DNA from: Leucoraja ocellata
Taxonomy: Eukaryota
Assembly (NCBI GenBank): GCA_036785375.1
Contig: JAWMAR010000065.1
Span: 3,472,001 to 3,536,000, forward strand
Length of the DNA: 64,000 nucleotides
Direction of reading: 5' to 3'
A program made the position numbers and the translations under genes. The notes under the pieces are model-generated. The model saw only the letters and a program-made list of their open reading frames with translations, did not search any database and was not told the origin of the DNA. Below, piece by piece: positions 56,140 to 56,958 of this stretch. The stretch's first letter is position 1; each line of letters opens with the position of its first letter.

Positions 56140-56958
56140 CAATATGAACATCTGGGTCAAACCAGTGACCGCTGCGAAAGGGCAGCTTACAACCAGGGAA
56201 AGACCTAGTGACAGCCTGGAGAGACTGCTGACCAGAGGGAATAGACCCCACTGGGGCTGGCATGGGCTAGCTCCTCATGCCAGCAGGATCCATCGCTAAT
56301 CTGCGTTTTGTATCCACTCTTATATTGTTACGGTAGGAATCGACTATGAATAAGAGAACTAGCACAGCAATTGACAGGGCAGCAGCTCTGGCAGGACATA
56401 AGCTATGAAGCTGCATCTGTGGCTGGGAAAATATGACATCAGAGAAGGGTCTCAAGATCCACCAGGGCAGGTAAAAGTGGCTGGGAGAGCTTGGTGTGGG
56501 GCCTCGCATAGACCATTACCTTCTAAGAGGTAGGCCAAATCAGTCGAGTGAAGCCCAATGGCAGGATAACCACCACAGTCCACAGGGTATCAGCACCCCA
56601 GGTGAAGCTCAACCAAGTACTGTCCCACCAACGGACACGAGTCCAGAGCCCAACCGGCCACAGTCAGTGGTAGAGAGGAAGATGGAAGGAAAAAAGCAGA
56701 ATGGAGCAGTCACTGGCTGTGGCTGAAGAGAAAAGATGCTGTCTGGGCTGCCACGTGACCATCTAGAGGCTAACCATAAGACACACACCCAGGGCTGATC
56801 ACTCTGCGGTGGGCCTGCCTTGACCAAGGGTGTCTTGTGATAAAAGACCGAAACACCCAGTGACATTGAGGTACACAACTGAAGATGTGTCTGATTGGTA
56901 GCAAAATCACCTTGTGGTGACCCCCAAGAATACCGGGTGTCAATTGTGGTGAAGAACC
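56140..56958 (+). mobile_element. Internally deleted HERO-like (RLE-type non-LTR) retrotransposon with 30-bp flanking direct repeat
   Basis: N-terminal zinc-finger-like CICGWENMTSEKGLKIHQGR...GPRIDHYLLR (about 56410-56600) is joined directly to the C-terminal AEWSSHWLWLKRKDAVW* (TGA at 56756-56758). TTAGGGATTGTAACATCCAGTCCTACTAAT occurs at 56110-56139 and 56959-56988. Confidence 0.75.
56818..56892 (+). ncRNA. Candidate pseudoknotted (strand-permuted) hammerhead ribozyme
   Basis: GUC (56832-34), GAAA (56850-53) and CUGAAGA (56879-85), with complementary helices I, II and III in the correct registers. See findings. Confidence 0.6.

What the first reader, a model, noticed from the sequence alone, without database searches (positions are those of the whole stretch)
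56818..56892. Hammerhead ribozyme core with a non-canonical pseudoknotted strand order in the 3' UTR of a HERO-like retrotransposon
Seen in sequence: every conserved hammerhead core residue is present and each helix closes in the right register. Helix III is GGGUGU (56828-33) with ACACCC (56853-58), giving a GUC cleavage triplet (cut after 56834) opposite GAAA (56850-53). Helix I is UUGUG (56835-39) with CACAA (56874-78), directly before CUGAAGA (56879-85). Helix II is G(U)GUCU (56887-92) with AGACC (56845-49), closed by the canonical G10.1-C11.1 pair, with one extra U after A9. Established: types I, II and III are circular permutations of the strand order [GUC]->[CUGANGA]->[GAAA]. Here the order is [GUC]->[GAAA]->[CUGANGA], which is not a circular permutation, so the RNA must fold as a pseudoknot (or as a dimer), and standard descriptors would miss it. 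Inference: helices I and II lie side by side in the active fold, so the short AUAAA linker (56840-44) could bridge them. I recall teleost HERO 3' ends having the same layout with a different helix I sequence, but this is unverified. I know of no description of this topology, although I cannot search the literature.
Basis: partly seen in the sequence, partly recalled or inferred. Interest (0 to 1): 0.92.

Follow-up and report, generated by a model that had tools for sequence, protein, structure and literature searches.

The report
Split-core knotted hammerhead in LINE retrotransposons
A family of jumping genes in this animal genome carries, near its tail, what looks like a self-cutting hammerhead RNA wired in a strand order not found in the papers searched, and its copies land as head-to-tail repeats, as expected if the gene is copied from a circular RNA; cutting itself has not been shown.

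Summary
The motif sits in the 3' UTR of an 850-bp non-autonomous derivative of an RT/restriction-like-endonuclease LINE (HERO-like) with hundreds of copies. Six families in this genome show that helix II does not use the strand after CUGANGA. It uses a strand 5' of the cut site (56812-16), followed by the stem I-II pseudoknot helix. The strand after A9 clamps to a far-upstream strand stacked on a hairpin. So the core is split between A9 and G10.1, outside the six published permutations. Helices I, II, W, X and Y covary. In the core only N7 and H17 vary, and one family has the hammerhead-specific C3-G8 to U3-A8 swap. Young copies are head-to-tail concatemers with a fixed 3' end and near-identical units, suggesting cleavage, circularisation and rolling reverse transcription from an internal start. 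Not shown: cleavage or circles. RNA reads gave no ends at the site, and helix III is invariant. The window copy is probably impaired.

The parts
56110..56991 (+). Non-autonomous, internally deleted RLE-LINE (HERO-like) insertion, slightly longer than one ~850-bp unit
   Evidence: 92-94% identical to other loci over the 3' part
56110..56142 (+). Terminal redundancy: the tail of the 'previous' unit (same as 56959-56991), followed by the fixed tail-to-head junction near 56140-46; not a target-site duplication
   Evidence: 97% over 33 nt; the same junction in 30 of 30 loci, with upstream extensions of variable length
56346..56700 (+). Broken N-terminal fragment of the element ORF
   Evidence: translation; a sister copy's fragment is 69-75% identical to 1124-1175-aa RT proteins
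56702..56758 (+). C-terminal end and stop codon of the ORF; the RT and endonuclease are deleted
56779..56785 (+). Helix X, 5' strand (pairs 56886-56892)
56786..56811 (+). Hairpin Y, flush between the X 5' strand and G10.1
56812..56816 (+). Helix II strand beginning with G10.1 (pairs 56845-56849)
56817..56824 (+). Helix W (stem I-stem II pseudoknot helix), 5' strand (pairs 56865-56872)
56828..56839 (+). Block S: helix III strand, GUC triplet, predicted cut after C56834, helix I strand
56845..56858 (+). Block G: helix II strand (window copy carries G-to-A at 56847), C11.1, GAAA, helix III strand
56865..56872 (+). Helix W, 3' strand
56874..56885 (+). Helix I strand and CUGAAGA (C3-A9)
56886..56892 (+).
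56959..56991 (+). Fixed 3' end of the insertion (inferred reverse-transcription start), about 155 nt downstream of the cut site

Best explanation
The motif is a hammerhead ribozyme of the SGC (non-circular) wiring that has been circularly permuted once more. The two natural ends of an SGC ribozyme (the end of the pseudoknot helix W and the start of helix III) are joined by 2-3 nt. The chain is opened inside the core between A9 and G10.1, and the opening is clamped by helix X stacked on hairpin Y with no spare nucleotides. The order is X5'-Y-II-W5'-III-NUH(cut)-I-II'-GAAA-III'-W3'-I'-CUGANGA-X3'. SHOWN by comparison: the helices, the core conservation and the genomic anatomy. INFERRED: it cleaves read-through transcripts of tandem units into unit-length RNA. 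The two ends stay held by helices X, II, W and III (about 21-30 bp) and are re-joined, by the ribozyme or by an RtcB-type ligase, into a circle. The RT/endonuclease protein then primes at a nick from an internal site about 90-226 nt downstream of the joint and runs round the circle, giving 5'-truncated concatemers with a fixed 3' end. My odds: upstream helix II and X/Y clamp about 0.9; catalytic hammerhead at family level about 0.8; circle route about 0.5. The window copy is a decayed passenger, with helix II broken at 56847 and W weakened.
For: Five family majorities (104, 20, 17, 10 and 16 distinct copies) all parse to the same six helices plus hairpin. Dinucleotide shuffles of the upstream 62 nt reproduce it in 1, 0, 4, 1 and 1 of 5000. 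Pair table: upstream helix II 20/20 standard, with two-sided changes at 3 of 4 positions and G10.1-C11.1 fixed; W 35/35 (4 of 7 positions change); X 20/20 (4 of 4); Y 15/15 (2 of 3); I 25/25 (4 of 5). On an unguided MAFFT alignment of 21 copies, X+III+I are 90.5% paired with 35 two-sided cells against 12.1 shuffled (0/500) and 2-8 for slid partners. Across A-E the core varies only at N7 (A/U/G) and H17 (C/A; U in the E majority). A search not requiring CUGANGA showed it intact in about 84 of 93 family A-E rows by my count, and found family F with UUGAUAA in 5 of 5 rows. That joint C3U/G8A change is the natural covariation described by Perreault 2011 (PMC3088659). Two F copies keep upstream II and W. 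The II-G-W and W-I-CUGAUGA-U junctions match the active SGC-1 construct read from the primers of Eckert 2023. Duplex energies favour upstream II (-7.3 to -8.6 kcal/mol; E -3.8) over downstream II (-2.3 to -3.4; E -0.5). The ORFs are divergent: B versus A 62%, E 65%, D 38% amino-acid identity. Concatemers: in family B, 30 of 30 loci holding the unit start run on upstream into the previous tail (one by only 3 nt), and none ends at the cut site. Arrays have a 3976-3977 bp period with a fixed 3' end. Units differ by a median 0.33/kb within arrays (19 pairs) versus 8.5/kb between arrays (420 pairs). One array has six junctions, five of them with 0-2 differences per 3 kb.
Against: There is no cleavage, ligation or circle assay. 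In 4 poly(A)/single-cell RNA runs (1291 reads laid, 1-5% of each run read) no begin or end pile-up lies at the family-B site; reads cross it in both directions, some from family A. Helix III is invariant in all families, so it has no covariation support. The families number only six and are related. C, D and E were found with patterns that required core letters, and F with one that required GAAA and helix III. In one search two measures were not above shuffles (48/500, 486/500). Few copies are fully intact (22/104, 9/20, 3/17, 1/10, 1/16), and my strict split descriptor passes 42 of 167 copies, 0 of 16 in E. Nested energy models pick X, Y and W but not helices I and II together, and 3D or threading feasibility was not modelled. 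A break between A9 and G10.1 has no tested precedent that I found. In family A, 18 of 25 distinct 5' ends fall between the junction and the cut site, one at it (counted by eye, score-selected sample), which fits a linear RNA end or RT stalling. Long arrays can also grow by unequal crossing-over between terminal repeats, and assembly polishing can homogenise units. Four related loci from another organism show no parsable core.
Confidence: 0.5

Rival explanations
1. The same split hammerhead, but no circle. It cuts slowly and makes a 5' end, as the HDV-like ribozymes of R2 and L1Tc do. Templates are linear, partly uncleaved read-through multimers, RT starts internally as in Penelope-like elements, and long arrays arise by recombination between terminal repeats or by RT jumping between monomers.
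For: Family A 5' ends crowd between the junction and the cut site (18 of 25). One family-B copy starts at the cut site, with an 8-nt duplication. SGC ribozymes are slow (0.007-0.19 per min). Internal initiation on a linear RNA is shown for a Penelope-like element (PMC11167929).
Against: In the unbiased family-B sample no 5' end lies at the cut site and 23 of 30 loci pass it. Lineage-private variants are shared by all units of an array, which needs a monomer bottleneck or later homogenisation. Junction letters are inherited by subfamily rather than made anew.
Confidence: 0.28
2. A non-catalytic, or no longer catalytic, folded 3' element that docks the RT. The hammerhead letters are an ancestral relic or protein-contact residues (the reading of earlier finding e1-7941993).
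For: No RNA ends were seen at the site. LINE 3' UTRs commonly carry RT-binding folds (general knowledge).
Against: The conflict disappears once the upstream strand supplies G10.1. The pattern of change is hammerhead-specific: N7 and H17 free, G10.1-C11.1 fixed while the rest of helix II turns over, and C3-G8 swapped jointly to U3-A8. The fold lies 90-226 nt from the RT start. Docking may be a second role.
Confidence: 0.15
3. A plain type-SGC hammerhead, with X/Y as an inhibitory alternative fold.
For: In A-D a G follows CUGANGAU, as in the published SGC descriptor. In the window copy alone the downstream duplex is the stronger of the two (-4.0 versus -1.4).
Against: An uninterrupted downstream helix II of 3 bp or more forms in 0 of 167 copies. 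It is absent in E and F. The downstream strand tracks X5', not the strand before GAAA. Helix W abuts the upstream strand.
Confidence: 0.05

Closest known systems
Type-SGC hammerhead ribozymes (HRIMA-1 and variants; Eckert et al. 2023, PMC10085705)
   Same: Same cyclic class of block order, same four helices including the stem I-II helix abutting both stems, a short link from I to II, and U after A9 in four of six families.
   Different: In SGC the helix II strand follows CUGAUGA(U) directly; the authors assume that block cannot be interrupted and know no insertion over 1-2 nt there. Here that strand is moved to the 5' side, all three inter-block links are present, and an X/Y clamp fills the gap. 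Their examples come from metatranscriptomes and metagenomes, none from genomes of known organisms except one GCS candidate.
Pseudoknot-stabilised type I-III hammerheads and U3-A8 core variants (Perreault et al. 2011, PMC3088659)
   Same: A pseudoknot helix from the 3' shoulder of stem II, and C3-G8 to U3-A8 covariation.
   Different: Those have circularly permuted, pseudoknot-free cores with a continuous A9-G10.1 link.
Metazoan non-LTR retrozymes and Penelope-like elements (PMC7229834, PMC4209133, PMC11167929, bioRxiv 10.64898/2026.07.22.740005)
   Same: Tandem genomic units, a hammerhead per unit, circular RNA (retrozymes) and internal RT initiation (Penelope-like).
   Different: Those use type I or minimal hammerheads and either encode nothing or a GIY-YIG/telomerase-like protein. 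This element encodes an RT with a CCHC knuckle and a restriction-like endonuclease motif.
R2 and L1Tc 5' HDV-like ribozymes (seen as a passage in PMC13580325 and a listing of PMC3185411)
   Same: A non-LTR element with a self-cleaving RNA that frees it from a longer transcript.
   Different: Different ribozyme class, placed at the 5' end of a linear template. No tail-to-head concatemer signature is described in what I read.
HERO clade of RLE-encoding non-LTR retrotransposons (name recalled; clade described in a passage of PMC4640811)
   Same: Single ~1170-aa ORF with RT, CCHC and RLE, dispersed insertions, close relatives in teleosts.
   Different: No named HERO sequence was available to compare. 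No ribozyme, circular RNA or concatemer description for HERO turned up in 10 searches, but Repbase Reports, Dfam and the original clade papers are not in the library.

Membership tests
Hammerhead ribozyme class | CUGANGA, GAAA and NUH in register with helices I and III | tested here: met
Hammerhead ribozyme class | Helix II closed by G10.1-C11.1 next to G12 | tested here: met
   G-C in 5 of 5 family majorities using the upstream strand; G-C and G-U in two F copies
Hammerhead ribozyme class | Tertiary 3-8 pair (C3-G8 or U3-A8) | tested here: met
   UUGAUAA in 5 of 5 family-F rows; precedent in PMC3088659
Hammerhead ribozyme class | A9 linked to G10.1 directly or through 1-2 nt | tested here: not met
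   A9 is 56885 and G10.1 is 56812, bridged by helices X and Y
Hammerhead ribozyme class | Site-specific self-cleavage after H17 | not testable with these tools
   RNA reads inconclusive
Type-SGC hammerhead (Eckert 2023) | Order cut site, then GAAA, then CUGANGA | tested here: met
Type-SGC hammerhead (Eckert 2023) | Stem II strand directly after CUGAUGA(U)G (published descriptor) | tested here: not met
   descriptor; 0 of 167 copies give an uninterrupted helix of 3 bp or more
Type-SGC hammerhead (Eckert 2023) | Fourth helix joining the far sides of stems I and II | tested here: met
   helix W, 7-9 bp, two-sided changes at 4 of 7 positions, but attached to the upstream II strand
HERO clade | Single ORF with RT, CCHC knuckle and restriction-like endonuclease | tested here: met
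   RVT_1 in relatives; YMDD, CCHC and PD..E..K motifs in the 1182-aa family-B ORF
HERO clade | RT phylogeny grouping with named HERO elements | not tested
   No named HERO sequence came from any tool; the label is recalled
HERO clade | Mostly non-specific insertion | tested here: inconclusive
   Flanks differ among copies; no target analysis was run
Retrozymes / Penelope-like elements | No ORF, or a GIY-YIG endonuclease with telomerase-like RT | tested here: not met
Retrozymes / Penelope-like elements | Tandem or partial-tandem genomic units | tested here: met
   by eye one locus each in C (L218) and E (L188)
Retrozymes / Penelope-like elements | Unit-length circular RNA in cells | not testable with these tools
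   only poly(A) and single-cell runs were available

The most novel reading that the evidence does not exclude
Autonomous protein-coding LINEs of the HERO-like group, in cartilaginous and bony fish, replicate through a covalently closed ~4-kb circular RNA made by a seventh kind of hammerhead wiring. Its catalytic core is assembled from strands on both sides of the cut, with the A9-G10.1 bond replaced by a stacked two-helix clamp, so the same RNA can cut, hold both ends and re-ligate them. The LINE RT then copies the circle round and round from an internal start.
Probability: 0.4. Interest if true: 0.93.

Novelty: new variant of a known kind. Interest (0 to 1): 0.82.

Why it matters
The published rule gives six possible hammerhead permutations because the CUGANGA block is assumed unbreakable. 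A natural, covarying exception would widen ribozyme search space, and it explains why Rfam and descriptor scans miss hundreds of copies in one genome. It would also put a non-circular hammerhead in an animal genome and in an autonomous LINE. The concatemer pattern makes a sharp, cheap question testable: does an R2-related LINE use a circular template with internal priming? That bears on retrotransposon evolution (links to Penelope-like elements and retrozymes) and on RNA-templated gene insertion tools, where a circular template and a self-ligating ribozyme would be useful.

Tried and rejected
Rfam: no hammerhead match at E up to 10 over 52000-60000, and none at gathering over the whole window. 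The 33-nt flanking repeat as a target-site duplication: rejected, it is element sequence. Short hairpins that overlap helix III or helix I (seen by eye) were dropped; they do not covary as W does. A pile-up of 5' ends at the cut site in family B: one copy found and none in 30 unbiased loci. Prokaryote and virus collections: no protein relatives; pattern hits behaved as chance, with 0 of 120 and 0 of 16 loci passing either descriptor. Four metagenome-collection loci with related ORFs had no parsable core. The search for families with a different helix III failed because I misplaced one pattern letter, so it returned the known families; that question is open. Compensation inside family C helix X is weak: 1 of 13 listed C motifs has both changes, several have G-U, and CpG decay confounds it. 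One search found an N-terminal match downstream in only 1/67, 7/32, 0/9, 0/6 and 0/16 motif copies (A, B, C, D, E); most copies end at the fixed 3' end, and the query suits C and D poorly. One search used mis-set brackets and is void. Sequencing runs: no RNA holder listed. Unbiased 5'-end mapping for family A was not obtained (one search gave places only). Helices II, W and Y were counted on a hand-anchored mapping, because MAFFT misregisters them between families.

Full report
Observation. The stretch alone folds no better than shuffles, and Rfam finds no hammerhead. The motif is a repeat: 1349 candidates, 40 scored at 92-100% identity; 890 core-pattern matches versus 1 control. The order cut site, GAAA, CUGANGA is indeed not a circular permutation, but it is published. 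Eckert et al. 2023 (PMC10085705) name it type SGC, show cleavage, and show that a fourth helix joining stems I and II is required. [quoted passage not shown] I read parts 1-6 of 8 of the text, supplement parts 1 and 8 of 42, and one supplement search; the figures and alignments I did not see could hold related variants.

The element. The window copy (56110-56991) has a broken ORF start (56346 on) fused to the ORF end (56702-58). A sister copy's fragment matches 1124-1175-aa RT proteins at 69-75%, named ones from teleosts. The genome holds the decayed autonomous parent with the same 3' UTR (family A) and a young family B with an intact 1182-aa ORF carrying YMDD, a CCHC knuckle and a restriction-like endonuclease motif. 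Pattern searches added families C, D, E and F. D and E lie behind related ORF ends. C has a related-looking ORF start by eye. F was seen only as rows and two 135-base stretches, so its link to an ORF is inferred from its likeness to E. 'HERO' is a recalled label; no named HERO sequence was compared.

The real fold. The strand before GAAA (AGGCC, GGCC, GACCC, GACCC, UCAAC in A-E) pairs perfectly with a strand 20-22 nt upstream of the cut site (GGCCU, GGCC, GGGUC, GGGUC, GUUGA), always closing with G-C next to G12. Directly after that strand, a 7-9 bp helix W pairs with the stretch just before helix I. This is the geometry of the fourth helix in the active SGC-1 construct, as read from the published primers. 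The strand after A9 pairs with a far-upstream strand (helix X, 4-12 bp), which runs without a gap into hairpin Y, which runs without a gap into G10.1. Shuffling the upstream 62 nt reproduces this in 0-4 of 5000 trials per family. All 20 II, 35 W, 20 X, 15 Y, 25 I and 25 III family-level pairs counted are standard, with two-sided changes at 3/4, 4/7, 4/4, 2/3, 4/5 and 0/5 positions. The window copy misled because of a private G-to-A at 56847, which breaks the true helix II and improves the false one.

Is it a hammerhead? The core changes only where hammerheads allow: N7 and H17. Because C-E were found with core patterns, I searched once without the CUGANGA block. Of the first 100 rows, by my count 93 were families A-E (84 intact core, 7 point changes, 2 truncated), 2 were unrelated, and 5 were a sixth family with UUGAUAA. 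The joint C3U/G8A change is the known covariation of the tertiary 3-8 pair (PMC3088659, passage), and neither site is a CpG. Two fetched F copies keep upstream II and W; both are old, one with several broken pairs. This is hard to explain by a protein-docking fold alone, the reading of an earlier unchecked note on another genome (e1-7941993). It is still not proof of catalysis. The A9-G10.1 link, which Eckert et al. treat as unbreakable beyond 1-2 nt, is replaced here, and no tested precedent turned up. The simplest description is a circular permutation of an SGC ribozyme: the W end is joined to helix III by 2-3 nt, and the chain is opened at A9/G10.1 and clamped by X/Y. Controls: 0 of 120 prokaryote and 0 of 16 virus pattern hits pass either descriptor. 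The strict split descriptor passes 42 of 167 element copies (0 of 16 in the older family E) and not the window copy.

Genomic signature. Insertions end at a fixed point downstream of the cut site: 226 nt in B, about 155 in A, and about 90-145 in C-E by my count. Their 5' ends are ragged and run through a fixed tail-to-head junction into the previous unit. In an unselected family-B sample, 30 of 30 loci holding the unit start continue upstream (one by 3 nt only). Ends lie at -3, -36 (twice, same insertion), -46, -77, -189, -204, -236, then -397 to -1460, and 11 are beyond 1.5 kb; none is at the cut site, -226. Arrays reach six junctions. Units within an array are near-identical and share private variants, unlike units between arrays (two of the 15 loci are the same insertion). 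So the template is continuous across both the junction and the cut site, and one unit is copied repeatedly. A re-ligated circle with internal priming explains this most simply. It has precedent in retrozymes (circles, mostly by RtcB; passages of PMC7229834) and in Penelope-like elements (internal initiation; part 1 of 4 of PMC11167929). Against it: family A ends crowd downstream of the cut site (18 of 25 in a score-selected set), one B copy starts at it, and recombination or assembly can also yield uniform arrays.

RNA evidence. Four runs from an organism holding the sequence gave 1291 laid reads. There was no pile-up of starts or ends at the site, and reads came in both directions, some from family A. 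Poly(A) selection, low depth and passive read-through of dispersed copies make this weak evidence either way, but it gives no support for cleavage.

Novelty. Ten library searches found no paper joining HERO or RLE LINEs with a hammerhead, and none on an A9-G10.1 split. Passages of two 2026 preprints do not mention Hero. I also saw passages of PMC5678591, PMC4640811, PMC13580325 and PMC4209133; other papers were seen only as listings. Subscription journals, Repbase Reports and Dfam were not searchable, and the tandem anatomy may be recorded there. Verdict: real and evolutionarily constrained; a new variant of a known ribozyme class in a new biological setting; activity and the circular intermediate are inferred; the window copy is probably impaired.

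Noticed in passing
window 16413-16439 (-), 42065-42091 (-), 42315-42341 (+), 44935-44961 (+), 55583-55609 (+): Five CUGAAGA...GAAACGU motifs (0.02 expected by chance) in an abundant short repeat. They resemble the minimal type-I hammerheads of Penelope-like elements (PMC4209133), a known kind unrelated to the split motif.
   Followed up: partly
L407-L412 (G000:C117, about 3.846-3.868 Mb): A family-B array with six junctions at a 3975-3976 bp period, at least 6.3 units (about 25 kb), with near-identical units.
   Followed up: partly
L218 (G000:C1:9289310-9289888): Family C has its own ~515-bp internally deleted derivative, with two motif copies head to tail.
   Followed up: partly
L009-L015, L029, L030: A subset of family-A 3' fragments (matching window 56660-56972) share identical flanks, so they were amplified inside another repeat; that host repeat has RT/endonuclease-like open frames upstream.
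   Followed up: no
   Followed up: no
L125:4500-4690: Single-cell reads in one direction rise just after the tail-to-head junction, with an A-run loose end at 4686; possibly a short transcript or internal priming near the 5' UTR.
   Followed up: no
window 56795-56802 and equivalents: The loop of hairpin Y is CUGAUCA in families A-D, one letter from the core heptamer, but differs in E and F; unexplained.
   Followed up: no
window 796-1323 (-), 58050-58475 (-), 62554-63306 (+), 54221-54828 (-): Decayed open frames that look like other retroelement fragments (CR1-like, L2/Rex-like and LTR-element-like; labels recalled, not tested).
   Followed up: no
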